Below, in pieces: positions 2 through 63,998 of a stretch of DNA of 64,000 nt. Under the pieces are notes generated by a model. That model was not told the DNA's origin, made no database searches, and worked only from the letters and a program-made list of their open reading frames with translations. A program made the position numbers and the translations under genes. This DNA comes from Bilabrum cf. latius (taxonomy: Eukaryota). Within the stretch, counting starts at the first letter, position 1; the number at the start of each line of letters is the position of its first letter. The stretch is from assembly GCA_965178125.1 (NCBI GenBank), contig OZ237758.1:248001-312000 (forward strand), written 5' to 3'.

Positions 2-3000
2 GCAGGGTCTTCCCCTCCATCGGCGCCGCCCTCATCATCGCTGGCACCCGCGTGGCTGCGGCTGGGCTGCATGCAGTGCCTGCGGGCGGCAGTGCGGAAG
101 GGCATGCCGGTGCCGCAGCGACTTGCCATGGTGGTGCAGTCGGGCATGCACTCGCTCGCTGCAGGCCAGCGCCCGCCTGCCTGCGACATGCGCGCCACGA
201 GGCGCAGGAGGAGGGCACTCTCGGGGCGGGCGCTGGGAGGAGAGCGTCCCTCCATCGGACACCGCGTGGTGTTCGAGCAGGTAGCCCCTGACGGCGCCAG
301 GCCAGAGGCGTTCCTTGACCTCACGCAGCAGGGCGAGCTGGCGGTGGCCCGCGAGACGTGCGCCCTGGCCGCCCTGCTGCTGCAGCTGGGGCTAGAGGCA
401 GCGAGGGAGCCCGCCGTGAGGTCTTCAGAGCCGGCCACGGCGGCCTGCGTTTCGCTCCTCCGAGCGGTTGTTCCCTGGGCCCTGGACCTGTTCGCGGGGT
501 CGCCCCCCGAGGCGGCCCTGGAGCTAGGCGGCAGCATCCGGGCACTTGCAAACGAGGCGAGGCCACCTCCCGGGGCTCCAAGCGCCGCGGATGCGATTTT
601 CGGCGGGGCTGCATCGGCCACAGGGAGGACGCGAGCCGGTGACAGGCCGGGGATCGCGCAGCTGCCCGGCTTTGCAGGCCGATAGATCGTTGAGCCGCTC
701 GCGGACAGCCTTTTGGTTGCTGGACAGTACCCTCCTGGGTGGGAATACCGGGAGCCGGAGGGTGACGAGGACTACGACGGGGAAGGCAGCGACAGCGATA
801 GCGAGGACGAGGGCGGTGGGGCGGCGGAGAGCAAGGGGGGCGGGGGCGGAGGCTCGGCAAGGTTCGCTGCATACGCCGACACCGTGCCCGCAGGCGCGGA
901 CGCGGTGAGGCTGGAGGTGGCCAAAGCAGCGAGGGACGCGGGGCGGTTCTTCCCGGCGGAAACGCTGGGCAAGATCCTGACCCACCTGACCGGCTGGTCC
1001 GTGGCCGCGCCGGGTGCCGCAGAGCCAGCCGCGGCCGTCCTGGCTGCGCTGAAATCCGGGCAGTCTTCCCTGCCCGCCGCCCCCTTACGGGCGATGGCCG
1101 ATGCCGCCAACCGGGCAGACGGGGCTCACTGGAGAGGCAAGGCCTACGAGTGGGACGGGCTGGAGTCCGCGATGATGCTGCTGTACTGGTCCGGGGAAGG
1201 TATCGTCAAGCACCAGGGGACCACCGCGCAGCAGCTCGCAGCCATCTGCCAGCTCGTCGCGTCGGCCCCGTGGACCCACCCGCAGGTTGAGGTGGTGATG
1301 CAGTTCATGGACATCTGCCAGCGGTTCTCCCGCGTGTTTGGGACCGTGCCCGCCCTCTTCGAACCGGTGGTGCGGGCCCTTCAGGGCAAGCACGGCATCG
1401 CCAGCCCGAGCGTAGCGGTGCGGGAGCGGGCAGCGTACGTGCTGCTGGACACGGTCAAGCAGGCCGCGAAACTCCCCCGCAAGGCGGGCCAGCCGGCCGT
1501 GGGGGCTGCCGCCAAGCCACTCCTCGCCAGCCTCAGGCAGCGCCTCGCGCCCGCCCGACTGCCCTCGGTGCTCATGAGGGCGGCGCAGGGGGGAGACGCG
1601 AGCGCACGGGCGGCGGTCGCCAAGGTGCAGAAGGCCGCGCCGTCGTGCGTTGCACCCCCGGACCGACGGGCCCCCGCGCTCAGCGTGTCCGCCCAGGGCC
1701 ACATCCTGGAGCTGTGCGGCTTTCTGCTCAAGCAGCCGTGGGTGCCCGCCGCCGTGCGGGGGGGCTTCACCTCGGAGGCCCTCAAGCCCATGGGATCGGC
1801 CGTGGCCGCGGCTCAGGGGGCCCTCGTGGAGGCACTCAACCGGGCTGCGGCCGCTCGGCTGCAGAGAGGTGGCGGCGGGCCGCCCCCCTCGCTGCCCGCT
1901 AGCGCGCACGAAGCACTTCGGAGCCCGGCCGTGGACACTCCCCCGTGGGCTATTTCCCTGTGCAGATACACTGCGGATCTCATGCGCGGCGTGGCGTCGC
2001 TGGTGAAGCCCTTTCACCACGCTGGTCCGGAGCTGCGGCCGACGCTGTCGACCGTGGTGCGAGGGGCCGTGGACGTCATCAGGGGCCTGGGCTGCTCGGC
2101 GGCGCACCCCCTGCATCCGTCCGTTGCAGCCGCCATCTTTGGCGGGGCACCGGGGGCAGGGGCAGGGGCAGGGGCTGGGGCAGGCGGGAGCAGCGCCAGG
2201 GCACAGCCTCGCAAGGCAGTGCGGTGGCCCCCGCGACTGGCGGCGGCTTGCGACCGGCTCAGGCTCTCTGCCAGGCTCGTCCTGCACCACGCCACGTACT
2301 CGCTGGGGCCCGAGGCGGCCCATCACATCGAGCGGGCCGTGCCCTCGCTCCTGTGCGTGCACCCCAACGCGCTGGCTTCGAGCAGGGAGGCGGCGCTGGG
2401 CGGGCCGGGGGCCAGGGAGGTGCAGCTGCCGAACCACTCCCTGTACCTGACCCTCATTCTCGTCGCGCACACGGTCAAGATCAACGGCGCCTGCCCCGCC
2501 AACGCCTCTCTTCTGCTCCGCTGCCTGCCCCTTTTGCTGGCGTGCTTGCGAGTGTGCGGGACCGACACGGAGGCGCGGATCAAGGCCGGCACGGAGGCTC
2601 TGAACGAGGCAGCCGCGAGGGGCGCCCGGTCGGGCGATTCGGGAGTTGGGCCGAGAGGCGGCCCCCCACAGGATGTGCTGCGGGCCTTTGCCTCTGCCCG
2701 CACGAGTGCCGCCAGCGCGGTGGTGGCAGCCGCGCAGGCGACCTACAAGGACGTGCTCATGCAGTGGCTGCGGCTGCTGAAAGACACGATCGAGGCCAGG
2801 CTCCAAGGTGCCATCGTGTTCGCCGGCAGCAGAGCGGGGGCTGCCGTGCTGCAGGCTGCCACGTCCAAAGAAGGGGGCCCCGCGGCGGCCGCTCGCGTGG
2901 CGCGGGAGGCCTGCCCAGACGGAAGCGCCATGCAGGGCGGCGTGCTGCAGGGCGTGCTCGGCTCGTTGCAGATGGTCATGACCTCGAGGCAGTGCAGGGA

Positions 3001-3778
3001 ACTGCACCCGTCCAGGGGCGCCGCCGACATCGCGAAGCTGCTGCTGGACGCGTGGATGCCCATGCCCCCTATGCCCACGTCCTCCGAGGGCGCATCCTCC
3101 GGCAGCGGCGGGGGGTTGTCCTCGCCCTCCAGCCCGAAGGGAGGCAAGCCCAGGTACCTTGACCTCTCTTCCACCAGCCCAGCGCGGGAAGGCGCGGGCG
3201 GGGTGCATCCCACTGCGGCGTCCTCGCCCACGCGCGGCTCCCTGCTGCCCGTGGACCTGCAGCCGCCCCAGCGCCAGACCTTCCTCCGGTGGTGCCAGGA
3301 ACAGGTCCCCGACGCGCTCGTGGCGAGCCTCGCGCTGCCCCCGGTCAGGCCAGGTGACCCGGACACTGACCAGCTCGTGCAGGCCGTGGCGGCGGCGCTG
3401 GTGGGGCTGGGCAGGCGGGCGGCGCTCAGGGCCAGGGACGAGAGGATGGCTAAAGTGGCGGACGGCGGATCCGTGGGCGTCGGCGGGCGCGGCGGGGGTG
3501 CAGTGTCGCTCGGGGACGTCCCAGTGGCGGCTAGCTGGCTGGCGGGTCGGCTGGCGGGGGCGTCTGTGCCTGGGGTGGGGCGCGCCGTGGCGGAGCGCGC
3601 CTCCCGGTCCGGGGGCCCCGTGCGGTCTCCCGCGGATGTGCAGGCGGCGGGGCGCCGGTTTGCCCAGGAGGTGCACGCGGTGTCCGTGAGCGCGGGCAAG
3701 GCGCAGGAGCGGATGGTGCGCGCGGTGGAGCCGGTGCGGGGCCTGGCTGCTTTCTTGCACGGGGCGCAGCGGGAGTGA
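2..3778 (+). CDS. Exportin-T (Los1/XPOT)-like importin-beta family protein, 5'-partial; one in-frame TAG (683-685)
   Basis: ORFs 71..685 and 713..3778 share a frame, are joined across a TAG and end at TGA. The segment 'QFMDICQRFSRVF...EPVVRALQGKHGIASPSVAVRERAAYVLLDTVK' resembles the exportin-T C-terminal HEAT region. Confidence 0.65.
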
Positions 3779-3885: not shown

Positions 3886-6800
3886 ATGAGGGCGGCCTTA
3901 GTATGTCTTACGGCGTCCGTATTGTCTTACTGTGCGCACGGTGCCGATACGAGGCGAGTTTTTGCCACATCGTCAGTGCAGAAGGGTGCAAGTCCGCCGT
4001 TCCCGTGCGAATTCAACGACTCGGTGCTCTTTGCTCCTCATGGTGCCGCTCCTTCGCTTTCTCGAAATGGTAGCGAATGCCATGTCCATAACGTTTTGGT
4101 GCCTGGGGATGTCGTGGTAGGATAGCCTGGAAATCACTCAACGTTGCTCCAGTTCATTGATCTGGATCACCCCTCCCGTTCGCCAGGAGGCTCAACCCTG
4201 TTCAGCGATACCTTTGAAGACCAAGAAGTAGCAAATAGCAACTAGGATTGGGAAATTTGGGAGCCTAGCACTGATTCTGGTTGCACAATCTCGCATGCAG
4301 ATGGCAAGCTCGTGCTATCACCAGACGCCGGGCACCAGACTTCCTGCGGTATATCTGGAGTACCGTACGCCGGCAGAACTGCCGCATGGGCACGAGCTTG
4401 GTTATCCCTTGAGCTTGATTCCCCAGCTGTACAGAACGGGTCTGCATTCAGGGCGGGTCTTGCGGTTCCGATCCAGGCAGCTGTGCAGCGGGCAGGCTGG
4501 CGCCCGCCTCGCCACTATCTGCCCCTTATCCCAAGAGGGGAACAGAGGCCGGCAGTTGCATCGAAGGACGAATTTGGCAGTCTTAGTCCTGCATCTGATC
4601 AGGCGGGGATCTATGTCACTGTATTAGGCGCAGATGCGCCATCAGGCACCGCCACGGTGGAGCTCCTCGCGCGGCGCTACCACGGCGAGGCAGCGACAGC
4701 GCTGGCCTCGGTGCGGGTGCCTGCGGAGTGCTTCGGCGGAGAAGTGCGGTCCAAGGTGTACCTGAACGCAACGGCAAGGAACGCGTCGGTCGGTGTGCGG
4801 TGCCTGGGTGCATCGCACGACAGCGCGCCGGCGCGCCACGGGCTCGACTGGCAGGACCAAGGCGGCATGGGCGACACAACCGGGGAAACCGTCCTTGTGC
4901 TGGAAGCGTACCAGCAGCAGCAGCAGCAGAAGCAGCAGAAGCAGAAGCAGGGGGTGGTTGCGTCCAAGTCAATAGCGAAGGGCCCGTGGGTCACCCTGGA
5001 CGCGGTCACGTTGAGGAACAACCTTCCCGAGGGGGCTGCTCCCGGTGTGGCAGCCCCCGTGTCGGACCAGAGCGGGACCATCGCCTGGGACATCGGGACT
5101 CTGGGCACGTGGCACAACCGGGGATAGCCCGGGGCGGCGCATGGGTGGGATGCAGGGGCAGACGACGGAGTACTTGACGTGACGCGTCATCCATTCCTGG
5201 CCGACCCCACGGGGGTGCTGGACTCGACGATGGCGCTGCAGGCTGCCATCGATTTCGCCATGGACAACTACATGTCGGTGTGGCTGCCAGCAGGCGTGTA
5301 CAAGGTCACAAAGGGGCTGCAAGCCATCCAGCGAGAGAGAATGTCCGTGGATGGAACGCCTACCTTCAACGGTGAGTCTTCTGTTTCCCAACTGCCTCAA
5401 GATATCAAGCCTGCCTCTTGGCCATGCCCCGTCGCTTGCTCACCGATACATTGCCTTCAATTTGCCTTACTAGTCTTTCACTCGCCTCGTCTTGCGCACT
5501 ATCAAACACGCAGGCACCTCCAACTACTGCAACCGGTTTAGGACCCCCAACATCCGGGGACAGGTCACGCGAGAGGCACGCCCGGACGACCCGCTCCCAA
5601 GGCAGGGCAGAGCCACTCTCTGGGTCCCTGAAGGCACGCCCGCATTTGCCGCCGCCCCGCCCGCCTCTCCCGTGGCGGTCCTGAACGCTTCGGAGATCAA
5701 CAACAGCGGCAGGCTGCAGTCGAACATCCTGATGAGCGCCGTGGTCGAGTCCATAGACGTCTTTGTGGGCCCGCGCAACCCTGGCGCTGTTGGGTTCCGC
5801 ATGCGCGGCGCCCAGGGGTCCTCTCTGGAAGACGTCGCCGCCTTCAATCCAGCTGGGGACGCGTACGCCGGCATCTAGGGCTGCTCCGGCAGCGGGGGCG
5901 CGCACTCCAACCTGACTGCCGTGGGCTTCCGGATCGGATTCGACGCCAGGGAAGTGCAGCCCGCGCCCACGGCCTCCAACGTGAGGATCTACAACAGCAG
6001 CTGCGCGGGGATGCTGCATGCCGGGCTGGAAACCATGTCTGTGGCCGGGCTGCTGGCCGTGGCCGGGCCCATGACGAGGGGGCCGGCCGTTGTGGGGTCC
6101 ACCACCCACGGGTTTACCGGTCCTGGGGGCGTGCTGCCGTCCTCTGGAGAGAGCGGCGGCGCGTGTCCCGATGAGCTACCCCCTGCCGTGAACAAGCAGC
6201 GGGCCAAACCCTGGCAAGAGGGCTCCCTCGGCCTGGTGGGTGCTCGGATCGAGGGGCCCTGGCGACGGGCGGGCGTCCTCAACGACCAGAGGTCTCTGTA
6301 CCTGAGAAACGTGCACGTCCAAGGGCAGGATGGCGCGGATTACTCCGCCGTTGAGGTCACGAACTAGACAGGACCGGGGTCTCCGCCCTACAAAGTGGTT
6401 GCCACTGGAAGCAGCAATGCCTGGACCAGCATCGAGGAGCTGGCAGTGGGCATCGATTTTTACCAGGACCAGCCCTGTCCACAGCCGCAGTACCCTGCCA
6501 TGTCGATGCCCACGTACATCAACGGGGTCAAGCAGCCCAAGGCTCTGCCTCCTCCGGTGTACAATGTGACCACAGGCCCCTCTGCCCCGACTGCCAGCAC
6601 TCTCCTGGGGAAGCACTCGTGGGGCGCCAGCCTGAGCTTTCCCGGGCCGTGGACGGCAGGTGCGATACACGCAAAGGCAGATGCTGGAGCGGTGGGGGAT
6701 GGTATTGCTGACGACACGGAGGCGCTGCAGCGAGCCGTGCAGATGGCTGCGACGAGCTTGAACGCGACCGGAGGGGTTGTGTTCCTTCCAAGGGGTGCTT

Positions 6801-7938
6801 ACCGCATCAGCCGCACCATCCACGTGCCCGCTGGAGTGACGCTCGCCGGCATTGCCAGGCAGTACGTCACCCTGATTGCCAACAACACGTATTTCCAGGG
6901 GCCCGAGGACCCTGCACCCCCGGCTCTGGATGCTGGAGCGCCCCCTGTCGTCCTCATCGGCGGTTGTGACATGCAGCGCGATCAAGTGAATCTTGGCAGG
7001 CTGCCAGCAACCAGGCACGAGGGGACACCGCCTCCGCACCGTCGCCTGCCAGTGCGCTGTACGGCTTGCAAGTAGTCGTGCCTCTCTCTACCGTGAATGT
7101 GTCTGCAGTGCAGTGGACCCTGGGCACCAACAGCGCTAGAAGCAAAGGCCAAGGGCGCGGCAGGCGGGCCAGTACCGGGGACCATGGCCTTGACGCAGCC
7201 CCGGCCACTTTCGGCAGTGCGCGTCAGGTGTGGGCAACCAATATTCCCATGTGCGGGTCTTGGTTCTTCAACTAGAGATGCACAGACATCTTTTTCGGGG
7301 CCCGGGGGTACGCACATGCCCTGGTGGCTGTGACGGCCTATTCAGGTGGTGATTCCGGTGCGGATGTCGATGACAAGTCGCTGTGGAATGCTAACAATGG
7401 GGGTGAAGGCGCGCCCCAGGGTCTGCAAGAGCTTCGTTGGCACACTTGGTACCAGGAAGACGGGGAGAGAAATGGCGGGTTCGCCCACCAGCACCCCCTG
7501 TACCGCAAGATGCTCGTGTCGGGCACGAAGCAGCACCGTGTGGCTTTCTACCAGCTCAACTCGGAGCATTGCACCTGCGAGGCGCAGAGCGAGTTCAGGG
7601 GTGTGGGCAACGTGGAGGTGTACGGTGTCAAGAGCGAATCTCACGTGACTGTCATGTGGGTGAGGAACTCGACGGGATTCTCCTCTATCGGGCACGGGGG
7701 TCTCGTGACGGCAGGGGCAGCCACGGACCCGCCGACCTACCCGAATATGGGACCTAACGCAGTGTATCGCTTCTCGGATTCCACTGGGTTTATGATCGCG
7801 AACACGCTGGACTAGGAGTACAACTGCTCAGATCCGGACTCTGCGGTGTACGACGATGGGGCATTCGGGCTGGGTGGCGCAAGCGTGACCACGGCCCCTT
7901 TTGAGTGGCCTGTGTACTATGGAAGGAGGCGGTTGTGA
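3886..7938 (+). CDS. Secreted beta-helix protein with two Pectate_lyase_3/GH55-like N-terminal motifs; 7 in-frame TAGs; intron ~5372-5513; unresolved frame change ~6962-7015
   Basis: Signal peptide MRAALVCLTASVLSYCAHG. Motifs 'DVTRHPFLADPTGVLDSTMALQAAID...VWLPAGVYKV' and 'GAVGDGIADDTEALQRAV...VVFLPRGAYRISRTI'. TAGs at 4123, 4243, 5125, 5876, 6365, 7273 and 7813. GTGAGT...CAG intron. TGA at 7936-7938. Confidence 0.75.
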
Positions 7939-8129: not shown

Positions 8130-9725
8130 ATGGCATCCGCTGAAGCTAGTGATGCAGGCGGGGGCCAGGATCTACCGTCTGTTCTGATCGCAGGGGTTCC
8201 TGAGCATTTCAATCGCCCCATCACCCAAGCCATCAAGAGAGGCGAATTCGTTGAGGCCGGTGTGAATGTTCGCTTTAAGAGTCAGCCCGGTGGAACAGGT
8301 GCTATGGTCAAGGCGGTCGTGAATGAGGAAGCAGACGTCGTCATCGCGCTTACGGAAGGTCTCGTGGCAGCGCTCGTCAAAGAGCACGGCGATTCTCTCG
8401 TCTTGGTAGGGAACTACGTGGTATCTCCATTGGTTTGGGCCATCACTGCGGCCGGTTCTTGCGAGCAGGAAACCATAGATCAGATGTCAGTGTCTCGAGT
8501 TGCAGTGTCTCGAATGGGATCCGGCTCGCACCTCATGGCGTTTCTCCTAGCAGAGCGGGAGAAGTGGCTCAAAACCCCGGAATTTGTCGTGCTACGCGAC
8601 TACGCCCGCATGCGAGCGGGACTGAACTAGGGCACGGCGGACATCCTGCTGTGGGAGCAGGCCATGCAGGCCCCCTTCGTGAGCAGCGGGGAGCTCACTC
8701 GCGTGGGCGAGCTGGAATCGCCATGGCCCTGCTTTATGATGTGCGCAAGGAAGCAATGGCTCGAGAGCGAGACCAACCGTGCCGCGCTGCACGCCGCCCT
8801 CCCCGTGCTCCGCCGCAGCTGCCGGATCTTCGTGTCCACGCCGGAGGACACGGTCAGGGACGTGTGCGCGTCCTACATGATCGACCAGACCGATGCTTTG
8901 CGCTGGCTCAGGGACGTCAAGTACGCAGCCAGCGGGCGCATCGCTCGCCCGTGGCTGCAGCTGGCGCTCGATGCGCTGGGCCGCGTAGGCGTGATCGACC
9001 GCGACACGGCCTCTCGCACCAAGGTGGAGGACCTGGTGGACAGCCGGTTCGTCACGCTGGTTGACTCGGAGGAGACGGTGCGGGTGGGGGAACCAGAGGA
9101 TGGAAAGGGGATCGGCACGCCCCGGGATGACGAGTGCAAGGGGTGCTGCCCCTACTACCAGGTGGAGAGAGCGGCGGTGGACGCGATCGAGGGGGGCAAT
9201 GGGGAGGGCTCGTTTCCTCTCAAACGACTAGAGGTGTCACAGGCTGCTGCCTCCGGGACTGGGGCTGGGGCGGGGTCGGGGACCAAGAGATCCCCGCCCA
9301 GATCCCCTGGGGGATCTGGGGGCAGGGGTCGGGCAAGGGGGAGCACTGGGTCCTCCGTCCCCACGGAGGGGGCGGGGGGCCTGCCAGTGGGGTCGTCCTT
9401 CGCTGCCGCCATGCGTGAGCTGGAGGAGGCGCAGTCGCAGGCCATGCCGGCAGGGGCAGAGGCGGGGTCGGCGAGTCTTGGGGTCGGGTTGGGTGCTGGG
9501 AGTGGGAGTGGGGGCGAGGACGGTGGGGAGAGGGCTTGGGGCGCTCAGCCAGCGGAAGGGGCCGTCGATGAAGCGAGCGGCGGGCGACACGGACGCCGAG
9601 GGAGTTTCTATACCCCCAGCGGACAGCGTTTCGAGAGCATCGATGCGTACAGGGAGTGGGTGGGAGCCAAGCAGAAGGCGCTCCGATCCATTGTGAGGCA
9701 CCTGTACAGCCTCGGCGGAAGATGA
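8130..9725 (+). CDS. Periplasmic-binding-protein type 2 fold protein (Ca3427/NMT1-THI5-like) with low-complexity C-terminus; one TAG (8628)
   Basis: Motifs 'IAGVPEHFNRP', 'PGGTGAMVKA', 'DVVIALTEG', 'VSRMGSGSHLMA', 'N*GTADILLWEQ' and 'SPWPCF'. The frame continues across the TAG and ends at TGA. Confidence 0.8.
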
Positions 9726-9759
9726 CGTCGCGGGGTGCAGTACCGCGATTCCGTCGCAG

Positions 9760-23163: not shown

Positions 23164-23173
23164 TGTTCTCGAA

Positions 23174-52176: not shown

Positions 52177-55100
52177 ATGGAGCATGAAGGCATGATGCAT
52201 GCAGACGACCTGGCTTTTCTGTCTCAACTATCATACGGAGATGATATTTAGCGATGGGATGCTGAAAGCACTGAGGAGGGTCCAAATGTGGCCGTAGGCG
52301 ACGACACGGAATCAAGTGCACCTGTAGCACCACGTGCTGAGAGGCGACCGTCCGAAATGCCAGTGGGGCCCACAAATGTGCTCAAATCTCATCTGCAAGC
52401 CTGGGTATCGAGCTTTCGGCAAAGAAAGTGGGAGTGGAGGGCTGGAGTTTTGGCGGATGGACAGCGCCAGTATTTCCAAAAGCTGCGCGGCATCCACCAA
52501 TGGCATGCTTGGGTCGGAGACTTGAGGATGCGGGATCAAATGATTCGTGCAGCATGTGATCGCATGCAGCGCTACCGACTTCGGTAGTATCTGTAGCGAT
52601 GGGCGGGACGCACTCAAGACGTTCGCCGGATTCGGCGAGCCGCCGAGCACGTCTGCCTCGCTGTTTCTCCGAGCTGCAGATGTCGCCGTGCCCTGAGGCA
52701 CCTATGGACGAATCGCACTCGGCATCAGCAGCAACGCTGCAACGCCAGGGTCTCAAAGGTGTTCGCTCGCTCTGCTGCGCTCCGTCGGGGTCTGGCTACC
52801 TGGAGACGATTTGCCGCCGCTCGCCGCCCGATCCGAAGAGCCGAGCGCGCCGCCGGACCGGCGCTGATGCACCTGAAAGCTCGCTTAGCAGTCAGGAAGT
52901 GGATGCTCTCAGCAGCTGGATCAAAGCGAAGCAGGATGCTCATGCGCGTCGCGGAGTAGGCAGCCACAAGGATGCAGCTGAAGCGAGCAATGCAGCGGCT
53001 GCGAGCAAGTGCCCGGCAGAAACGGTCGCTTCGGTTCAGGGCAGAGCGCCTTGGGCAGCGGCTGGAGGTCATTCGCGCTCGAAGCGGGCTGATCCGGTGG
53101 CTTCACTGGGTCCGAGCTCGCCACACGCAGCGGTCCAAGATGGCCATCCTCCGCGTGACGAGTGCGAGGCACCAGGCCAGGAGGGCGTTTCGAACCCTGC
53201 GAGAGCACCACGGGACCAATCAGCTCGCCCGTGCGTCCGCTCGCACGGCGGAGGCGCACTGGAGACGTAGGGCGCTGACACGGGCGGTGAGGCTGTGGGC
53301 GGTGCGGGCGGCAAGCGCGCAGTAGGCCGCCATCGATGCAGGTGAGCTCCGAGTGAGGTGGAGGAGGTGGTGCCTGCACGTGCGACGAAGGCGCACGATG
53401 CGAGTGCTGGCTAGGAGCGTGGTCCGCAGCGGCCGCGCCGCACTTGCTCGCAGGCAGCTACTCCGCTGGAGGGCCCATGCGCGGCATCGCGCCGCGGAGC
53501 GATTCAACCTGAGGTGCGCCGCACTGTTCCGCAGGCGGGTGCTCCTGCACCGCTGGTACGAGGGGTGGCGAGCGGTTGCAACCGCTCGAAGAAGGCTCCG
53601 AGTCAAGCTGTTGGCGGCACGAAGCCACAGGAGGCGGAGGATCGTGCGTGCCGTGCTATTCGCATGGAGCAGGCAAGCCGTCGCGAACAGGGGGCTGCGA
53701 GGCGCCGCCAGAATGAGACGGCGGCGGCTGCTCGAGCTGGGTTTTCGGCTGATTGCTGCCCGCCAAATCCTACGGAGGCGCCGGGCTGCCGCGCTGCAAC
53801 GTGCCATCGAGGCGGGTCGCAGGGGCGCCACGCGAGCAGCGCTGAGGGCCTGGCAGCGGGTGCAGCGACGGGAGGCCGTGCTGCACGGCTCGCGCACTGC
53901 CGTGGAGCATATTCGCAGGAAAGGGTTGCTGGGCAGGTCGGTTCGTGTGTGGCTATAGAGGCTGCATCGCGCAGAGAGCCTGCAGCGCACTGAGGTAGCG
54001 GTGCAGCAGAGGCGGGCTGTGGCCGTGTCGCGAGCGGTGCTGACCCGGTGGGCATAGCTCCTGCGAATCAAGACTGCAAAACAGGAGGCGGCGCGCCGTG
54101 TGGTCGCATGGGTGCGAGCCAGTTGCGTCCTGGGTCCCGCCATGCGCACCTGGCGAAGGAAGGACGCAAGTGGGCGGCGGCAGGATGTGGCCATACGGAG
54201 AGCTGCGGGACTGTTTGCTTCGAGCCTTCGCAAGCGAAAGCTCTCGCGGGCAATTCAGTCGTGGCTGGAGGAAGCTCGGGAATCTATCCGCATCAAAGAA
54301 TCGATTCTTAGCTGCGCAGAGATGTCCGTTGAGCGCCGCTGCTGGTCGGCCCTAGCTCGGCTGAGAGGGCATGCCCTGAACAGAGCACGCACCCGTGCGC
54401 TGCAGTGGACTGCAGACTAGCATCGCAGGAGAACCTGCTAGGCAGGAGCTCTACTCAAGCTGGCCTCCCACGCTGCAGAGAGGTCCTTCCGCCGGCAGCA
54501 GCTGGAGCAGGCGTCGCGGTTGGTGGGGATGCACCTCAAGAAGCGGGCGTTTGGGAGGATGCGTCGGTTCGTCCTGCTCTTCTCCCGTCTGCAAGAGCGA
54601 CCGAAGAACATGCACAGCAGGCGACCCGGGGCGCAACCTGCTCCCAATCGACAAGACAGCCATGCGGTTGCTCTCCCTGGTTCTGCTGTCCGTCATGCGG
54701 ATCATCGGAGAGCGCCGACATAGTCCATCGCGCTGCTAGACAGGGCAATGTCCCTGCTGGGGGCAGATGACAGGTCTGGAGATCGGGAGCTGAATGCTTC
54801 CGGGCCCAGCACGACTGGCAGGGACCGGAGGTCGCCCGATCTTGGGGGTGACATGCACTGCTGGGCACCGCCCTCTCCTCCGCATCAACTCGCAGGCCAC
54901 GCGGCCCCAGCACACTCGCCGGGCTGGACGGCCCCCCCTTCCCCTCAGTCGAGCATTAGCAGACCGCGGCGACCTTCCGTCACAAGCTAGACCTCTTTGG
55001 CCAGCAGCGCAAGTCGGAGAGACCCGCCTAGAATCCCACCCTTCATGCGACGGGAGTGGCAGCAGCAGCAGCAGCAACAGCTGCGACCAAGGCGGCCATC

Positions 55101-56949
55101 CGTGGCAAGCGCCAGGACTGACTGCAGCACCAAAAGCACGCAGGCCGTGTCAGACCATCTGCAGCCTATCGTGGCTGCACTCGCGCCAAAACAAGCTCAG
55201 CATTCTAGCGACAGCCGGCACGCAGCCAGAGGATCGTTGATGCAGCCGCTTCAGCCCATACCGCCGCAGCAGCCCAGTGGGTATCAGAGTGAAGGCATTG
55301 CGCAGAAGCAGCTTCGGCGCCAGCCAACGCTCGTCCCACGCCCCCGAGATTTGGCTGGGTCTGGCAAACCTCGAAGGCAGGACCCTCGCACATCTGCTAC
55401 GGTCTCGTAGCACGCGAGCTACACGCAGGCGCGTACACCTGAGCGATCTGATCCAGCTGCCCTACCCGAGCCCTCAACGGACGCACGCACCAAGCACTAG
55501 CAAGCTGTATCCGCAATGCAGATCCATAGCGGCGCCCAGAGCTCCAACCAGCTCGCTATTTCTGCTTAGGGATGTGTGGGAGGGACCGGTGACACACCTG
55601 TGACCAGCGTATGCAACGAGGCAGCCGAAGCTAGCACTGCAGCAGCGCACACCGTTCCTGCAAGCAAGCAGGATGCGCCCGACCATCAGCAGCACCAGCA
55701 GAGCAACGAGAAGCAGCAGCGGCACTAGGCTCTTCCTGTGGAGACACCGCTATAGGAGGCAGCGAGTGCTTTTCCCTCGCCCGTCCTCGATCGAGCGGCC
55801 CAAGTCAGGCCAAGGTCTCCAGCAGGCCGTGCTGGTTTCTCAACCGGTGGCACAGGAGGATCTGCTGCAGATGACGACACGTCCGGCCCAATGGATCCGA
55901 TAACAGACGAGCCGGAGGTGAGATCGCTCGGTATTACCCCGAGCACAATAAAGCTGCCACTGCCGAGCAAGCAAGCAAAGAGACGGCCGGACTGGTCCTA
56001 CAGCATTGTGGTCGCGTCCGTGCAGCCAGCCATATCCGCCCCGGCTAGCAACGACCAGCCCAGCACCAGCGCCACCCAGCAGGCAGCCCAGGAAATTTCT
56101 GCGGTTCGCAGAGGGCAAGAACTCACTGGGTTTACCACCAGAATCAGGAAGCCCCTGTCGGTAGAGATGCAGCCGGCGGCTAGCGCTAGTCCCCGCGAAC
56201 AGAACGATGGAGCTAGCTCAGCCGGCGCAGCTCAGAACCGTGCGTCAGCACAAGCAGTGGGCGCTCAAGAGATCACACCAAGCGGGGTGCAGCCGGTGTT
56301 ACCGCAGGCCGATTCAGGCTTGGCTTCGAATGAAACTGGCGTATGGACTGCTAGGTCCGACCTTGAGCGGCTCCCCTGGATGGCAAGAGTGCCCGGTGGA
56401 GATCGTGACGGTGCGGCCAGTGTGACCAGTGCAGTATCCGGAATCAGTGGTATGTCCCTGCTAAGCGGGACCGCCTCTGTGCTACGAGCCGCCACAGGTG
56501 CGGGGAGGCAGGCAGCGGCTCAATGCAAGGCTAGCGCCAGCATAGGCGGAGTGCCATCGCCCAGCAACGAACCCCTGGCCTTCAGTTCAGGTCCTTCCGG
56601 GTCTCGCGTGGCTACCGAGGAAGTTTCACCATTGCTGCTGCAGCTGAGGCGTAGAGCGAAGTCAGCACTTGATGATGCCCATGCTGCCGAGTCGATGTGG
56701 CGAGACATGCAGGCGGAGTCAGCAAGCCGTAGCACCGCCTACTATGGCAAGTAGGGAGACTCCAGAGACATAGCTGAAGTCGCAGAAGCGGTACGTGACA
56801 CCGCAACTTCACTCAGAAGGCTGCGCGCTCGCACAGTGGTTTGGAGACACGTGGCAGATGGCCTGCGAGGCAAGCTCGGGGACAGTGCCTGGAGACTGGC
56901 ACTCGGGTAGGAGCTGTGGGCAGGGCTAGAGTAGTTTGGACTGTGTTGA
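52177..56949 (+). CDS. Large Arg/Trp-rich Sfi1-like (centrin-binding repeat) protein, ~1590 aa; 19 in-frame TAGs
   Basis: One uninterrupted frame from ATG 52177 to TGA 56947-56949 if TAG is sense. Periodic 'LxxW/FxxW' Arg-rich helices, then a low-complexity tail. Confidence 0.7.
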
Positions 56950-57050: not shown

Positions 57051-60000
57051 TTACTCGAGCAATCGGCGAGCATTGACCATGGTGGCCATGATCTCCTACT
57101 CTTGCTTGGCGGCCGACTTCGCCAAGTCTACCTGCTGCCTGTACGCAGCAGCTCCAGCTCTGGTTGCTCGCAGCGCTAGCTCCCGTCTCGCCCGAACAGC
57201 CTCCGCTGCTGCCTGCCTCTCCTCGCGAGCAGACTGCACTGCTGCACGCGCCTGATCCCGAGACCGTCGCGCCTGCTCGGCCTTCCCTCCGCGGGAGCCC
57301 AGTCGGACCGCTCGTGCTGCTTGCTGGTGGAGTGCTCGAGCCTGCATTGCTTCCCGCATGCGGTGCTGCCTTGCATCCGCATCGGCCCTCGCCCTCGCCC
57401 TCGCCGTTGCAGCCAGCCGAGCTGCCTCGTCCTCGTGCGATGCAAGTACCTCTGCCTCCTTCAGCAACGTGGTAGCGCGGTCCAGCCGCTGCTACCGCCT
57501 CTCTCCCTCCTTTGACAGCAAGCTGCGTCGGACTGCATCTTGCTTGGACATTCGGACGGCCCTTGCCTTGGCCCGAGCTTCATCTAGCTCGTAGTCTCGA
57601 ACTTGGGCCGATGTAGCCGAAGCCTGGCCCTAGTCCATGTCTCGAGCGCTGGCAGGGTCATCCCACGCCGCTGCAGGCCCCCGACTACCCCTCTCGGAGC
57701 CCAGGCCTGAGGAGAGAGCCGCCTGCCTGCGTGCTGCCAGCGGACTTGCCATGATGCCCAGTCGGCCAGAGGGGCCTGCTCCCGCTGTGGCTGGCCGCAG
57801 AACGCCCGTATGCGCGCCCCCGGCACGCCTAGCCGGTCGTTTGGCGGGGCTCACCGGCGGCCTAACCGCAGTTCGAGCGCCGTGATCCTGAGTAGCTTCG
57901 ATCCCCTTCGATCCCATGGACACGTGGGAGAGGCCTCCAAGCTTCTGGGGCAGATTTGCTCCCTCGATGGAGTCTTGAATGTCCTGGACAGAGGGATCCC
58001 GGCCGAACTCCATCACCATGCTCGCTGCTCCCGGGGACCGTGTGGCAGATGCGCCTTCCACCCAGGCATGCGGGGTGTTGCTTGCGCCAGGCGCATCGTG
58101 CACCGAACCAGAGGTCTGGGATCCAAGGGCGAGGCTCGGCAGCTGCAGATGTTGCCTACCAGTGGGTGTGCTGCCACCACCGCGCCCCATGCCAGCGCCA
58201 GCGGTTTGCACGCGTCTCCCAAAGCTAGTCTTTCCGCTAGAATCATGGGCGTTGCGACGGACTTGTGCCGGAGTTCGCACTGGGGACTGGGGCGGCGGGA
58301 CGGCCGTTCCAGCCCCAAACTGGATCACCTGATCTCCGCCCGCATCTGCCCACACGTCGCGGTGGTGCCTCCGCGCCGACTGCGTCATTGACCTGTTCCC
58401 ATACCGGCCGCTACTTCGTGAAGTCAATACAGTGTCGCCAGCCGCCTCTGCCCACCTCGGGGTGGCGCTTCCTTCGGAAATGCCACTTCTGGGCGTGGGT
58501 CTCACGTGCAGCGCAGTGGCTGCAGTCGTCGCCAGGAAACCTTTCTGTGCTGCGGATCGCGCTGCAGTGGCTGCCATTTCGCCAGCTGTCATGGGCCGAC
58601 CGCCCCCACCGACCACGCCTCGCGACACAGAGCGAAGGCCCCTGTGCGAGGTGCGACCGCCGCGAGACCTTCGAGGCTCTCGCTTCGACTCGAGCGTCGA
58701 GTGACTACTGCGGCGACCCACCGGAGTGGTGGCAGGGCGCCCCTGCCCCGGGCTATTGCCACCGTAAATGATCCTCTCCATGCCCATGCCCACCCCATGC
58801 GACTGCCGCTGCGGAGTGCCCAGTTCTCTTGGGAACGGCCCGTTCCCCTGACCACGCCCCCCAACGATGGACAAAGAGATCGATCCCTGCCCAAGCCCTG
58901 CTGGCGACCTGTCCCTCGCCGTTGCACTTCTCGATAGCATGGATGACCTCGCTGGGCTGCGCTGCTGGGCCGCCCTGGGGCGTACTGTATTGGGGGACAG
59001 TCCGAGCCCAGACAACACCGCTTCTCGATCGGATTTCCGAGCGCTGCCAAGGTCTTGCATCGCCTGCTTACGCTGTGCAGCTTGCTCACATTCGGCAGAC
59101 CACCCGAAATCCAGCACGGGTGGCTTGCTTGACTCGTTCCTGCGCTCGGTATTCAGCATATCCTACCACTGAGACACAACTTCACGAGAAGTGTGTAGCC
59201 GAGCACCAGTGCCTAACGGCGCGTGCCAGGTTAGGGCGAGTAGGAGACAGGCCCGGGCCTTTGCTTCCTACAGGGTGGGGAACGTGATGGCGGCGAGTTT
59301 GAGCCCACGGCTGTGCCATGGTGGCATCATGATCTCTTTGAATTCCCGAGGTGCGGCACCTCCTTCGCCATCAGAGCTCGCACCGGCTGCCGCATCGCCA
59401 TCACTGGACGGAATCCTGGTCATGTGCCCTGGTTCTACCCATCGCACGTGGCAGCCGACCGACAGCAGCGGAATGTTGTCCACTGGCCAGCCGCACTATA
59501 CGGACGACGAGCTGGCGTACGCTGGCACGAGCCACGATCGCAGCGAGGACGATGCCCGCTGCGCCTCGCCGTCCGACACGGGTGCGCCGTGTGCAGCCGT
59601 CTTGCTCGCCCTGTCCTCGCCCTGCCTGCGCCGCCGCAGCGCCTCTGCTCGCACCCTCTGCATCTCTGCCCTGTACTGCGCTCCGCTCACCCAGTCCACG
59701 TGCCAGCCCATCCAGCGCGGTAGGCCCACACGACGGTCGATCCAAGCACGCGGCGGCGGCTCGGGATACACAAGCTACACCTTAGCGAAGTGCTTTGGCG
59801 GGAGCAGACCGTTGCAATCGGGCTGGCTTTCCAGCGGAATTTCGTCACTCTTCGAGGCATCGTCGCCTACCGACGCAGACGCTGAGAAGCACGCCTGTAG
59901 TTGGTGCTCAAGCAGCACAAAAGGTTGCCATGCACGCCATGCAGCAGCCTCGGGAGGCTCCGGCTGCCCCCACATCCGACCAGTCGCTCTAGACATGGCA

Positions 60001-63000
60001 AGGCATCGGAGAGTAGATTCGTTCACGTACAGCGTTCGCACTCCGCATCTGTCTATCTCTCTTGACAGTGCCGACGCGGCTCGCAGCATGGCAGTCCTGC
60101 GACGTCCGCGCCGGGCGCGCGCACATCGCTGCACCGCCACAACGGCTCTTCGGTCCGTGACGCGCTGAGCAGCGTTTGGCCGCAGCCGCGTCCGCGACAG
60201 ATGCGACCTGAATGCCTTCTGAATCAGCACAGCAGCAACGGCCCTGGCGGCTTGCTGGGTGGACAGCACGGGTGGGCGGGGTAGCGTGGGCCCGATCGAT
60301 AGCAGGCCGGCGGCAGCTGCCGGGTCCCTGCTCGCTGCCCTGACGATCGTGGCGTCACTGGTAGGAAGTAGCCCGCTATCTGATAGTACCAGCTTGTCGG
60401 GCGCCTGGCACACCTCGAGGAAAAGAGGCAGGCGCAGCATGAATGTTGCAAGGCATCTGGCAGAGTCAAACCGCAGGCTCCAAAGGCGAGAAGAGCCTGA
60501 GAGAACGGCAAGGCGAGAGCCGCAAAGGGGCTCCTTGGAGGTGACATCTGCCTCCTCCATATCGAACGTTCGGTAAAGGTTCCTCAGAGCGCGCGCACCC
60601 GAGGCCGAGGCCGGGTTAGGCAGGCCCTCAACCTGCTTGCTGGAGGGCGGGGCCCCCAGGTAGCCCACCAACACTGTCTCGGCAGGATCTGCCTCTTCGT
60701 CTTGCGTGCCTGCCTCTTCGCTGGCTTTCGATGCTTTGGGCAGTCCAGCCACGCGATACTACAGCGCTTCTGGCCGAATGTACCCAATGTGGGTCTGCAA
60801 ACCTTCGATGTGGTGTGAGGCCTGCAGCTTCCCACCCCTCTGACCCACAAGCAGCGGCATGGTCTGCAGCGCCGACTCCCGACCGTGAATGCTGTTGCGT
60901 CGCGCGGCCGATGCGATTCCCGCCACGGAGCTCCTTCCGTCCCTGGCTAGCATTCGATCTTGCTCTAGGATCCGCTCCCAGTGCTTCTGCTCGTCCTCGT
61001 CAATAGACAGGTGCGTGTCCGATGCCACCCACGCGAGTGCGGCAGCAGCGCCAATGGCTCCGGAGTATATCTGTGCGTGCGATCGCGTGGGATGTCCGCA
61101 TCGCTTCTTGAGGTGCTCTGTGCGCCGCCTGAGGGCAGCAGTAGCCCCATACCACTGGTTTGCAGGTCGTATGCCGGGAAGTGCGCCACCAGGCGTCCAG
61201 GAGATGCCTGCAGCAGCGGCCGCGGCATGAAGGTGTGAGGGCCGCGAGCCTTTGTGGACGTGTATCCGGTGCAAGATGAGCCTATGCCTGTCCTGCGTGC
61301 GCATAGGCTTGGTAATGTGCATTGCCTCTCGAATGGCGCACCTCGTGATTTCCCAGGCTAGATCTGACTGCATCGAATGCTTCACCATGCGACTGACGTT
61401 TGGATGGTATGCGACCCAGTCGGCTGCGCGCAGACCCGCCGGCACGCTACCTCCCCTGGAACCTACATTGGTCTATGTCAGGCGCATGTCTCGCAGCAGC
61501 GATCGCATCCGCACCGCAGACAGCTGCCTCTCAAGCTGAAGCGCTCCGCCAGTGGGCGCCCTGTGGCCCTGGCATCCCGTTTGGTGCGCCACCCGAGACA
61601 CCTCGGGACACGCCCCGCCGAATGGGTCAGCCTCTTGCCAGCGGCCACGTTTCTTCTTTCTCCTCTTTCTCCGCTTCGATTTAGACTTGCCCGTGGAAGG
61701 AACAGCAAACGCCGCGAACCCAGTGCGCTTCGAAGCCGCCTTGCGAGTCACGCTGGCCCGTCGCCTCTCGAGCTCTTCCTGCTTGAAGTCCCTGCCCTCG
61801 TCCGATGGGCCCTCCTCTGTGTCGAACTCGGCGCGCTGGATCCTAGTGGTGTCCCACCCTCGGATCGTAACGCACGTCGGCGCAAGTCTCACGGGAAGCA
61901 CGCTCGCCTCGTGGACCCGCTCGGCCTCATCGCGCACAGACCCGCTCTGTCGCATCAGCTCGTGAGCCACTGCCTTCCAGCCCTTCCCCGCCAGCTTCGT
62001 GCGGCTTGCGTCATCCGTGGTATCTCTCGCTGCCTTGTCTGGCTGCTTTGGGGAGGTAGCAGAAGCAGCTGCCGTCAGAAATGCACCCTCTCCCTGCCCC
62101 TGCCCTTGCTATCGACCAAGCTGCGGAGTGCGCGGCGATGTCTGCAAGGAACGCGGTGATACAGACCCAGGCGATACCATAGCGCCTCGCCTCACTTTCA
62201 CCGGCTGCCTCGGTGCGACCTGGGCTCTGCACGAGCACGCGGCAGCACTGATAGCGGCCGCTACCCACGCGGGATGCCCGGGCAGGAAGCACATGTACCT
62301 CGATTTATGGCTACTACTGGCGGAGCCCGCACCACCCGTTGGCCCACTGGAGCCAGGAGCAGATCCACCTGCTAGCTGCGCCCCCGATTCCACCCCCATC
62401 ACAGAGTATGCCATCCGCTCGACCCCGATGGGCTGTCTCGAAGCCTGCCTCTCGATAGCCGCTTCGAGGATGCTGACCCTCGCAGACCACTGTCGCCAAC
62501 ACCCCTGGATGGTGGCCGCAGCTCCGTGCTTACGACGGTTGCGCGTGCGACGGATCCACATCCGCTGGACCAGGGTGGCTGCCTCGTACTCGCGTCGCTG
62601 GTAGTGCGACAGTGCCAGCATGGCCTCATCTCCGTCGTATACCTGGGAGAGAGAGGACCGGCGGGATCGAGCGCTGGGTCTCGGCTAGATGGACTTCATG
62701 ACGTCCTGCAGCTCTCTCTCTAGCGCCACCGCCTTATCTTCATCATCCGAATCGAGATCTTTGTCGTAGCGCGCGTCAACACCGCCCTCCTCGGTGCGCA
62801 CGTCCTGCATCATTTGGTCCAGCGCCGCCATGGCCTCCTCCGCTTCTTCCGCCGCCTCGCCGCCCCGCTCCATCTTTGCCTCCAAAAAGGACCGCTAGGC
62901 CGCCAGGCGATTCTTCGTTGCGATCATGGACTCCTTGCGCTTGAGCAAGGCGTCCTTGCGCGCGAGCGCCGCCAGCTGCGACTGCGAGATCCCAGCGGCG

Positions 63001-63998
63001 GCCTCCTCGAAGGCGGCGAGAGCGTGGGGGGACGAGGAGCGCCCCGCCCTGGGGCTGGACTCGGACCCGCTGGACAGCAGGCTGCGAGGGGAGGAGCGCC
63101 CATCCCTAGAATCCCCTGCCACGGCTAGGTCGGGCAGCTTGGGCCTCTACGCATCGTGGCCGGTTGGCGACGCGGCTGTGGCCGGGCGGACGCTCTGGAA
63201 CGACTGCTCGTCTCGATCGCTCGTCAATCCTCGCCCCTCCACCGTCTTGGGGCGCCCTGACAAAGCCGAGGATCGTCCACGAGCGGGCGACCTGGTCGCG
63301 TTGTCCCCGGATGGAGTCCCCCCGACCATCCTTGGCGTGGTCGTTCGCTTTGGCTGCAGCTTTGGGGCGCCTCGGAGCAGCCAACCCGAGAGGGAGGCGG
63401 TAGTTTTTCTCCTCCACAGCCACACCTTTGCCACTGCCTGGACTGCTCGCACAACCGCGTCAATGTTGTGCAACCTCGGCTGGCTGCCCCGCCGACCGGT
63501 TCCACCGGCCATCATGGATAGCTTGTGGGACCGATTGAGTCTCGAGCTGCGACCTCCTCTGCTGCCTCGGCTCTTGCCCATGGAGGACGTGGGCGACGAG
63601 GGGGGCTCCGGAATAGAGACGCTGTCTTTCGCAAGCCGCAGCACATCGCTGTCCTGCCCACGCCTCTCTTTCATCGTCGGGGTGGGTGGCGGCGCCGGCG
63701 AGCCGCCGCGGGAGCTGCCGTCTGCACTCAGCCCCGACTCGTGGTACCGTTTCAGCGCTGCCAGGAAGGGGCTGGAAGGGCGGCCGGTCCCGTCGTCGGC
63801 TTCGAGAACGCGACCGCCTGCAGCGTGCACCGCAGCGACCAGAACCCTGACGGCTGACGGTGTGCTGTCGCTCAACCGAGACCCCACCCCGCTGCCTCCG
63901 TGGATGCCCGTGTGCAGCTGAACGGCTGCCTGTCGCAGCCGGCCGTTCACAAAGCGCCGCACCTCTTCGGCTGGCATCGTTGCAATGCGATGCATGCG
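57051..63998 (-). CDS. Very large IQ-motif/coiled-coil protein, probably 5'-partial, ~2315 codons in window; 13 in-frame TAGs; ends at TAA
   Basis: Eleven listed ORF fragments lie in one frame, separated only by TAG. IQ-like motifs 'AATLVQRMWIRR', 'AATIQGCWRQ' and 'AAVLIQKAFRSH'. TAA at 57051-57053. Confidence 0.72.

What the first reader, a model, noticed from the sequence alone, without database searches (positions are those of the whole stretch)
2..63998. Nuclear genetic code with UAG reassigned to a sense codon (Gln)
Seen in sequence: about 75 in-frame TAGs (hand count) across 13 genes on both strands. Each is followed by continued coding in the same frame, and reading through them joins the halves of recognisable enzymes (PLD, sphingosine kinase, GH5, RPC7). 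No gene model ends in TAG. Many TAGs sit beside CAG/CAA (S*QPK, KH*QA, ERR*QRL, HQQHQQSNEKQQRH*). Established: stop reassignment is known in ciliates, some metamonads and some green algae. Inference: this GC-rich, intron-poor protist may be an independent origin. The organism cannot be identified from this window.
Basis: partly seen in the sequence, partly recalled or inferred. Interest (0 to 1): 0.95.

Follow-up and report, generated by a model that had tools for sequence, protein, structure and literature searches.

The report
UAG read as glutamine, eukaryote nucleus
This GC-rich eukaryotic chromosome piece carries dozens of in-frame TAG codons inside real, transcribed genes, so the organism almost certainly reads UAG as an amino acid (most likely glutamine) and stops only at UGA and UAA, a rare variant of the genetic code.

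Summary
In 13 gene models (11,154 codons) there are 65 in-frame TAG, 0 TAA and 0 TGA. Out of frame, the same DNA has 58, 16 and 148.5 per frame. Adding the multi-exon GH55-like ORFs and GH5 exon 1 gives about 76.

A scan that assumes no ORFs finds coding-like sequence in the same frame on both sides of 44 of 682 TAGs, against 2 of 340 TAAs and 3 of 1158 TGAs.

The TAGs are not assembly errors. Contigs of two other studies match the window with no differences. A run that behaves as RNA covers 31 of the TAGs unspliced and unedited.

Glutamine is the best reading:
- One TAG sits on the Q of the phospholipase D motif ENQFF, which is Q in 13 of 13 homologues and in human PLD1 and PLD2.
- Diverged copies (78-99% identical) show Q at 6 of 8 cleanly aligned TAG sites.
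- Q gives the best summed Pfam score of ten residues tried.

TAA seems to remain a stop. The lineage could not be identified, so an independent origin is open. No tRNA-Gln(CUA) or eRF1 gene lies in the window.

The parts
2..3778 (+). Exportin-T-like gene (5' end runs off the window). 1 in-frame TAG (codon 228, base 683). Ends in TGA.
   Evidence: Pfam Exportin-T 4.1e-08. TAG position.
3886..7938 (+). Multi-exon GH55-like / pectate-lyase-fold gene in three overlapping ORF pieces (3886-5631, 5351-7096, 6970-7938). 10 TAGs lie in the ORF pieces. Exon borders are not resolved, so some TAGs may be intronic.
   Evidence: Pfam PF12708 hits in two pieces. PDB beta-1,3-glucanase 5m5z 9.5e-10. Translations.
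8130..9725 (+). Ca3427/NMT1-like periplasmic-binding-fold protein. 1 TAG (codon 167, base 8628). Ends in TGA.
   Evidence: Pfam PF22384 1.2e-18. PDB 2x7p 4.2e-30. Q gives the top profile score of 10 residues tried.
9760..12606 (+). Large GH5-like secreted protein. 7 TAGs. Ends in TGA.
   Evidence: Weak Pfam Cellulase hit. TAG positions. At codon 301, S scores 23.3 and Q 23.2 bits, the top two of 10.
12683..13921 (-). C2H2 zinc-finger protein. No TAG. Ends in TAA.
   Evidence: Pfam zf-C2H2 3.4e-44. ORF table.
14499..16415 (-). DAG/sphingosine-kinase-like gene. 4 TAGs. Ends in TGA.
   Evidence: Pfam DAGK_cat 4.1e-22 and YegS_C 3.4e-09 lie on either side of the TAGs. PDB SphK1.
16522..18618 (+). 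Protein without a family match. 7 TAGs. Ends in TAA.
   Evidence: ORF and TAG positions. No Pfam family.
18775..19992 (+). Pseudouridine-synthase-like ORF (weak match). 2 TAGs near the N-terminus. Ends in TGA.
   Evidence: Pfam PseudoU_synth_2 E 0.0047, below the curated cutoff.
31193..33085 (+). GH5 cellulase-family gene in two exons (about 31193-31996 and 32057-33085). 1 + 3 TAGs, two of them 5 and 3 codons before the TGA.
   Evidence: Pfam Cellulase profile positions 27-126 in exon 1 and 140-270 in exon 2. At codon 62 of exon 2, Q scores best of 10.
33570..35351 (-). Secreted-looking protein without a family match. 1 TAG. Ends in TGA.
44575..44657 (-). tRNA-Leu(CAG), the only tRNA gene in the window. 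It is not a UAG suppressor.
   Evidence: ARAGORN. Rfam tRNA 46.2 bits.
45032..46015 (+). 3 TAGs. Ends in TGA.
   Evidence: No Pfam family at E up to 5 except a chance-level BUD22 hit. Covered by run X6 and X8 contigs.
46324..46505 (+). Spliceosomal GT..AG intron (182 nt) in the 5' leader of the alpha-galactosidase gene.
   Evidence: Joint 46323->46506 in a 2156-nt contig of run X6, 255 letters on the shorter side. Sequence.
46528..48039 (+). Alpha-galactosidase (GH27). No TAG and no CAA. Its contig has the highest depth in run X6. Ends in TGA.
   Evidence: Pfam Melibiase_2 9.7e-41. Codon counts. Depth.
48918..51938 (+). Phospholipase D. 4 TAGs at codons 380, 399, 581, 770 (bases 50055, 50112, 50658, 51225). 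Codon 581 is the Q of the ENQFF motif. Ends in TGA.
   Evidence: Pfam PLDc. PDB PLD1/PLD2 alignments. Q in 13 of 13 homologues.
52177..56949 (+). 1590-aa arginine-rich repetitive protein. 19 TAGs. Ends in TGA.
   Evidence: A colinear contig of run X6 spans 52467-56976 with no differences. Diverged copy P0023.
57051..63998 (-). Protein of more than 2315 aa (5' end runs off the window). 13 TAGs. Ends in TAA.
   Evidence: Colinear contigs of run X6 span 56981-61433 and 61404-63554 with no differences. Diverged copies P0015-P0019.

Best explanation
The window is nuclear DNA of a GC-rich (63%) eukaryote whose cytoplasmic ribosomes translate UAG as an amino acid, most likely glutamine. UGA (12 of 15 gene models) and UAA (3 of 15) end the proteins.

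Shown here: TAG codons lie in frame inside conserved and transcribed genes, they are kept in the transcripts, and where they can be compared they correspond to Gln.

Inferred from how other such codes work, and not tested: a tRNA-Gln able to read UAG (a CUA anticodon, or efficient near-cognate reading), together with an eRF1 that no longer recognises UAG but still recognises UAA and UGA.

TAG supplies about 12% of the Gln-type codons. It is absent from the gene whose contig is deepest in the RNA-like run, as expected of a minor codon.
For: (1) Stop asymmetry. There are 65 TAG, 0 TAA and 0 TGA in frame in 11,154 codons, against off-frame rates of 58, 16 and 148.5 per frame. The ORF-free scan gives 44 of 682 TAG, 2 of 340 TAA and 3 of 1158 TGA with coding-like flanks in the same frame.

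(2) Frame continuity. The 40 codons after a TAG fit the same frame in 46 of 59 cases, the same as before it (46 of 59). After terminators the figure is 4 of 14.

(3) Domains on both sides of TAGs in one frame. Both PLD HKD motifs; DAGK_cat and YegS_C.

(4) Residue identity.
- PLD codon 581 aligns with Q of ENQFF in human PLD1 and PLD2. It is Q in all 13 homologues that reach that column, out of 14 found.
- In diverged copies 78-99% identical, window TAGs face Q at 6 sites, E at 1 and K at 1, of 8 cleanly aligned sites.
- Six called ORF fragments of those copies end exactly before six other window TAGs, so those TAGs are shared.
- Pfam bit scores summed over 4 domain-internal TAG sites: Q 164.7, K 163.3, E 162.9, S 162.3, A 161.8, R 160.8, L 157.8, Y 157.6, W 155.9, F 155.8.

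(5) Not an artefact and not editing.
- Contigs of X1 and of X5 (another study) match with 0 other letters.
- X6 shows a GT..AG splice joint, gene-by-gene depth steps, and contig ends that meet in the convergent intergenic gap at 56977-56980.
- X6 contigs cover 31 TAGs of two genes, colinear and without a difference.

(6) TAA as a stop. No in-frame TAA in 11,154 codons, although CAA is 17% of CAA+CAG. Three models end in TAA.
Against: - The residue rests on few informative sites. At three TAG sites distant PDB homologues have L, L (next to a gap) and F. These are variable columns, and the F comes from a non-significant alignment.
- Two sites in close copies show E and K. A ninth site (PLD codon 399) falls beside an indel and faces K.
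- The profile score margin for Q is small: 1.4 bits over K and 2.4 over S.
- The tool labelled X6 'RNA? (probably DNA)'. That it is RNA is my inference from the splice joint and the depth pattern.
- No tRNA-Gln(CUA) and no eRF1 gene is in the window, and no whole genome is held.
- Whether UAG ever terminates is untested. 6 of 65 TAGs lie within the last 15 codons of 4 models, about 1.1 expected.
Confidence: 0.82

Rival explanations
1. UAG has a dual, context-dependent meaning: it is sense inside genes but also terminates some genes near the 3' end of the mRNA, as in Condylostoma, or as UAA does in Blastocrithidia.
For: 6 of 65 TAGs fall in the last 15 codons of 4 of 13 models (GH5 exon 2, the 698-aa, 1590-aa and 2315-aa proteins), with about 1.1 expected. 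GH5 exon 2 ends ...G-TAG-S-TAG-L-R-TGA. Ending every model at TAA or TGA is by construction.
Against: If those genes ended at TAG, the next chance TGA or TAA would lie on average about 68 codons away (rate). That does not explain tails of 3-15 codons. The sample is small and the enrichment was noticed after the fact. TAG positions are otherwise even along genes.
Confidence: 0.1
2. UAG is a sense codon but stands for another residue: Glu or Lys, or Ser as reported for Scotinosphaera, or Leu as in the rhizarian exLh.
For: One site each shows E and K in close copies. Profile scores for K, E and S are within 2.4 bits of Q. Distant PDB homologues have L or F at three sites.
Against: Q in 13 of 13 homologues at the ENQFF site. 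Q at 6 of 8 cleanly aligned sites in close copies, with S, L, Y and W at none. L, Y, W and F score 7-9 bits below Q.
Confidence: 0.06
3. The code is standard. The TAGs would lie in in-frame introns, in pseudogenes, or be sequencing or assembly errors, or be removed by RNA editing.
For: Spliceosomal introns do exist here. The tool itself doubted that run X6 is RNA.
Against: - One TAG lies inside the invariant ENQFF motif.
- Only TAG, never TAA or TGA, interrupts 11,154 codons.
- Close copies align without gaps and carry Q codons at the same places.
- Contigs of two other studies are identical to the window.
- X6 contigs are colinear and unchanged over 31 TAGs.
Confidence: 0.02

Closest known systems
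UAG=Gln with UAA and UGA as stops. Reported for the fornicate Iotanema spirale (PMC5304391: abstract and passages read). According to PMC11687900 (passages read) also for Protocruzia tuzeti and two phyllopharyngean ciliate lineages. It corresponds to NCBI table 15.
   Same: Only UAG is read through, it corresponds to Gln, and UAA and UGA stay out of reading frames and end the genes.
   Different: Here UGA is the main terminator (12 of 15 models) and the DNA is 63% GC. In I. spirale UAA is the predominant terminator (PMC5304391). The window has long tandem satellite arrays and many genes on at least 64 kb. That this is unlike the AT-rich ciliate macronuclear DNA is from my own knowledge. The lineage of the window is unknown, so identity with one of these taxa is not formally excluded.
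UAR=Gln codes (NCBI table 6): many ciliates, hexamitid diplomonads, some Ulvophyceae, Streblomastix, Amoeboaphelidium protococcarum (listed in PMC11687900 and PMC5304391, passages read).
   Same: Stop-to-Gln reassignment of UAG.
   Different: No in-frame TAA in 11,154 codons, and three models end in TAA. The Amoeboaphelidium genomes are 40% GC (PMC10608142, Table 1), against 63% here.
UAG-only reassignment to other residues: Leu in the rhizarian exLh (PMC5304391); Ser in Scotinosphaera (as cited in PMC11687900; original paper not seen).
   Same: UAG is decoupled from UAA.
   Different: Leu and Ser fit the data worse than Gln.

Membership tests
Nuclear code UAG=Gln, UAA/UGA=stop (table 15 type) | UAG occurs in frame inside bona fide, conserved protein-coding genes | tested here: met
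   65 TAGs in 13 models. Domains lie on both sides in one frame.
Nuclear code UAG=Gln, UAA/UGA=stop (table 15 type) | The UAGs are present in mature mRNA (not spliced out, not edited) | tested here: met
   X6 contigs are colinear with 0 differences over 31 TAGs. That X6 is RNA is inferred from a GT..AG joint and gene-wise depth; the tool's own label was uncertain.
Nuclear code UAG=Gln, UAA/UGA=stop (table 15 type) | UAG positions correspond to Gln in homologues | tested here: met
   Q in 13 of 13 homologues at PLD codon 581. Q at 6 of 8 cleanly aligned sites in close copies. Q has the best summed Pfam score of 10 residues, by a small margin. Three variable columns show L, L and F.
Nuclear code UAG=Gln, UAA/UGA=stop (table 15 type) | UAA and UGA are not read through | tested here: met
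   0 in frame in 11,154 codons. 2 of 340 TAA and 3 of 1158 TGA pass the flank test, against 44 of 682 TAG.
Nuclear code UAG=Gln, UAA/UGA=stop (table 15 type) | UAG never serves as a terminator | tested here: inconclusive
   Models end at TAA or TGA by construction. 6 TAGs lie within 15 codons of the ends.
Nuclear code UAG=Gln, UAA/UGA=stop (table 15 type) | A tRNA-Gln that reads UAG (CUA anticodon), and an eRF1 with altered stop recognition | not testable with these tools
   The only tRNA in the window is Leu(CAG). No genome is held.
UAR=Gln code (table 6 type) | UAA is also used in frame as a Gln codon | tested here: not met
   No in-frame TAA. Reading TAA as sense adds no domain-supported extension. 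The transcript-like contig ends 70 nt after the TAA of the 2315-aa gene.
Ambiguous stop/sense codes (Condylostoma type) | The same codon is sense internally and a stop at the 3' end | tested here: inconclusive
   Mild excess of TAG near model ends. There is no protein-level or ribosome-level data.

The most novel reading that the evidence does not exclude
This is a so far unreported, independent origin of a UAG-only stop-to-glutamine reassignment, in a GC-rich, UGA-terminating, non-ciliate eukaryote. UAG may retain a residual terminator role close to the 3' ends of some genes.
Probability: 0.45. Interest if true: 0.8.

Novelty: new member of a known kind. Interest (0 to 1): 0.72.

Why it matters
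Nuclear codes in which UAG and UAA have different meanings are very rare (PMC5304391, PMC11687900). Each new lineage is a natural experiment on how eRF1 can drop one stop codon while keeping its near twin.

A GC-rich genome with the change would also test the idea that such reassignments go through stop-codon loss in AT-rich genomes.

In practice, any annotation of this genome under the standard code will truncate or wrongly split a large share of its genes. Here 14 of 15 models carry a TAG in at least one ORF piece.

Tried and rejected
Tools and data that were not available
- Whole genome: none is held, so no genome-wide codon inference, tRNA search or eRF1 search was possible.
- The look-up of sequencing runs listed no RNA holder on record. 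I treat X6 as RNA only on the internal evidence.

Searches that gave little
- PDB searches for the GH5-like genes found nothing.
- The homologue search for the 948-aa GH5-like protein gave only 3 weak unnamed hits, so 7 TAG sites could not be compared.
- The representatives search with the first 1200 aa of the 1590-aa protein gave 4 hits. Only one was close (P0023, 89%). The 32-45% hits lie in a repetitive, fast-evolving protein and their residues at TAG sites (K, H, N, G and others) carry no weight.
- Rfam at the gathering threshold missed the tRNA that the E-value scans then found.

Lineage
- The Atlas search with alpha-galactosidase gave only generic eukaryotic clusters.
- Metagenome relatives of alpha-galactosidase are only 42-68% identical, of mixed GC, and unlabelled.
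- Amoeboaphelidium (an aphelid, UAR=Gln, a parasite of algae with cellulases) was considered and rejected, because its genomes are 40% GC (PMC10608142, Table 1) and TAA is not read through here.
- A green-algal TGTAA poly(A) signal was looked for. It is present downstream of only 4 of 15 genes and does not sit at the contig ends.

- TAG next to CAG/CAA: 5 of 65, equal to the background rate.
- RPC7: no family match.

Literature
- Nine full-text searches found no report of a GC-rich non-ciliate lineage with UAG=Gln.
- The library lacks many subscription papers: the Scotinosphaera paper, Karpov 2013 and the aphelid genome paper were not seen. Supplements were closed.
Full report
WHAT THE WINDOW IS

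The window is 63% G+C (57-72% in 4-kb steps). It carries eukaryotic genes on both strands:
- an exportin-T-like gene, a Ca3427/NMT1-like binding protein, a DAG/sphingosine-kinase-like enzyme and GH5 cellulase-family genes;
- a GH55-like beta-helix gene;
- a nine-finger C2H2 protein;
- a GH27 alpha-galactosidase and a phospholipase D with both HKD motifs.

One canonical GT..AG intron is documented by a spliced contig (46324-46505). There are two large satellite arrays and a single tRNA gene, Leu(CAG). No whole genome is held for the window.

THE OBSERVATION

Under the standard code the long genes fall apart. With TAG read through, ORFs of 1590 aa (19 TAGs), more than 2315 aa (13), 1006 aa (4), 948 aa (7) and others appear.

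In 13 models bounded by TAA or TGA (11,154 codons) I count 65 TAG, 0 TAA and 0 TGA in frame. The two other frames of the same DNA hold 58 TAG, 16 TAA and 148.5 TGA per frame. So TAG is not depleted in the reading frame at all, while 164.5 expected TAA+TGA are absent.

ORF length is partly a matter of construction in GC-rich DNA, so I ran two tests that do not use ORF borders.
- A codon-usage model trained on TAG-free stretches puts the 40 codons after a TAG in the same frame in 46 of 59 cases. The figure for the 40 codons before is the same, 46 of 59. After real terminators it is 4 of 14. Six TAGs were too near the model end to test.
- Across all six frames outside the satellites, I asked which stops have coding-like flanks in the same frame on both sides and no TAA or TGA within 80 codons. 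The answer is 44 of 682 TAGs, 2 of 340 TAAs and 3 of 1158 TGAs.

NOT AN ARTEFACT, NOT INTRONS, NOT EDITING

Contigs of four public runs were laid on 44990-63998. X1, and X5 from another study, match with no other letters over the pieces listed. None of the six listed variant positions is a TAG.

X6 was labelled 'RNA? (probably DNA)' by the tool, and no holder is on record as RNA. It nevertheless behaves as RNA:
- a 2156-nt contig joins 46323 to 46506 across a GT..AG interval;
- depth steps from gene to gene (48.5, 64.5, below 7, 10.1, 15.6), while X1 is flat at about 45;
- two contigs end 4 bases apart in the convergent intergenic gap, at 56976 and 56981.

X6 contigs 52467-56976, 56981-61433 and 61404-63554 are colinear with the window and have no differences. 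They therefore carry 18 of the 19 TAGs of one gene and all 13 of the other. Contigs can hide rare variants, so raw reads would still be worth having.

WHICH RESIDUE

The strongest site is PLD codon 581. It aligns with the Q of ENQFF in human PLD1 and PLD2 and with Q in all 13 homologues that reach the column, out of 14 found.

The protein databases also hold diverged copies of these genes, 78-99% identical. They may be another strain, a sister species or a second haplotype; one search shows many 90-99% contigs in X1.
- At window TAGs these copies have Q at PLD codon 380.
- In the 2315-aa gene they have Q at five sites and E at one.
- In the 1590-aa gene they have K at one site.
- That is 6 Q of 8 cleanly aligned sites. 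A ninth site lies beside an indel and faces K.
- The called ORF fragments of these copies end exactly before five other window TAGs in the 2315-aa gene and one in the 1590-aa gene. Those TAGs are therefore shared and cut the gene calls.

About half of the comparable TAG sites differ between copies that are 89-95% identical in protein. This looks like synonymous TAG/CAR exchange, but I did not see the DNA of the copies.

I also ran a small profile test. Four TAGs lie inside Pfam domain matches, and I re-scored each domain with ten readings of TAG. Q ranked 1st, 1st, 4th and 2nd. The summed scores were Q 164.7, K 163.3, E 162.9, S 162.3, A 161.8, R 160.8, L 157.8, Y 157.6, W 155.9 and F 155.8. 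This is weak support for Q, and it speaks against Leu, Tyr and Trp.

Against Q: distant PDB homologues show L, L (next to a gap) and F at three TAG sites. All three are variable columns, and the last comes from a non-significant alignment.

The count is 5 of 65, against 8.2% for all codons and 15% for CAG/CAA themselves.

UAA AND UGA

Twelve of 15 models end in TGA and three in TAA. No TAA is in frame. Yet CAA is 78 of the 472 CAA+CAG codons, so about a dozen TAAs would be expected if TAA were a minor Gln codon.

Reading TAA as sense joins nothing with family support. The one TAA that passes the flank test on a sense strand is the terminator of the 2315-aa gene. The X6 contig ends 70 nt after it, and the downstream frame is antisense to the neighbouring gene. 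I conclude that only UAG is reassigned.

OPEN POINT

Six of 65 TAGs lie in the last 15 codons of four models, with about 1.1 expected. A residual terminator role of UAG near 3' ends is not excluded. However, it explains the short tails poorly, and the sample is small.

WHAT IS KNOWN

- UAG=Gln with UAA kept as a stop is described for Iotanema spirale (PMC5304391, abstract and passages).
- According to PMC11687900 (passages) it also occurs in Protocruzia tuzeti and two phyllopharyngean ciliate lineages.
- UAG=Leu occurs in a rhizarian and UAG=Ser in Scotinosphaera (same sources; the Scotinosphaera paper was not seen).
- UAR=Gln occurs in several groups, including Amoeboaphelidium. Its 40% GC genomes (PMC10608142, Table 1) do not fit this window.
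- Nine full-text searches found no GC-rich non-ciliate lineage with this code. The library is incomplete and supplements were closed.

The code variant is therefore a known kind. Whether this lineage is new remains open.

VERDICT

The finding is real. UAG is a sense codon here (about 0.95) and most likely stands for Gln (about 0.85 given that). UAA and UGA are the stops. The mechanism, a tRNA-Gln reading UAG plus a changed eRF1, is inferred and not shown.

Noticed in passing
window 23599-28563 and 37955-44587: Two large tandem satellite arrays: a 123/247-bp unit repeated about 40 times at 97% identity, and a 164/327-bp unit repeated about 40 times at 96% identity. The second has extreme AT skew and ends right at a tRNA-Leu(CAG) gene at 44575-44657 (-).
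   Followed up: partly
window 46324-46505: A 182-nt GT..AG intron lies in the 5' leader of the alpha-galactosidase gene. The first ATG of the long ORF (46459) lies inside the intron, so the true start is probably the ATG at 46528.
   Followed up: partly
window 46528-48039: The gene whose contig is deepest in run X6 (alpha-galactosidase) has no TAG and no CAA among 23 Gln codons. This suggests TAG is a minor, non-preferred codon. Contig depth is a poor measure of expression.
   Followed up: no
window 33068, 33074, 56908, 56932, 18577, 57098: Six TAGs lie within 15 codons of the TGA or TAA that ends their model, about five times the expected number. It is unclear whether this is chance, relaxed constraint at C-termini, or occasional termination at UAG.
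   Followed up: partly
window 50206-51784: In the 3' half of the PLD gene the X1 assembly breaks into short contigs of higher depth. X1 and X6 both hold a second, diverged version with several joints and base differences. This may be a second haplotype or a paralogue, and may be the source of the 78-95% identical copies in the protein databases.
   Followed up: no
window 56950-57050: The two largest genes converge with only 101 bp between their stop codons. The X6 contigs of the two genes end 4 bases apart, in an AT-rich patch that contains AATAAA on the + strand.
   Followed up: no
window 20118-22688 (+): In a lower-GC stretch, one frame is open for about 850 codons if TAA and TAG are both read through and one TGA is ignored. 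It has no Pfam family and includes a 53-bp tandem repeat at 21453-21672. It is probably non-coding or a decayed element.
   Followed up: partly
window 1-64000: Rfam at the gathering threshold reported no match for the whole window, yet the tRNA at 44575-44657 scores 46.2 bits against a threshold of 29 in the E-value scans. The fast filters of the first mode can lose a genuine tRNA.
   Followed up: yes
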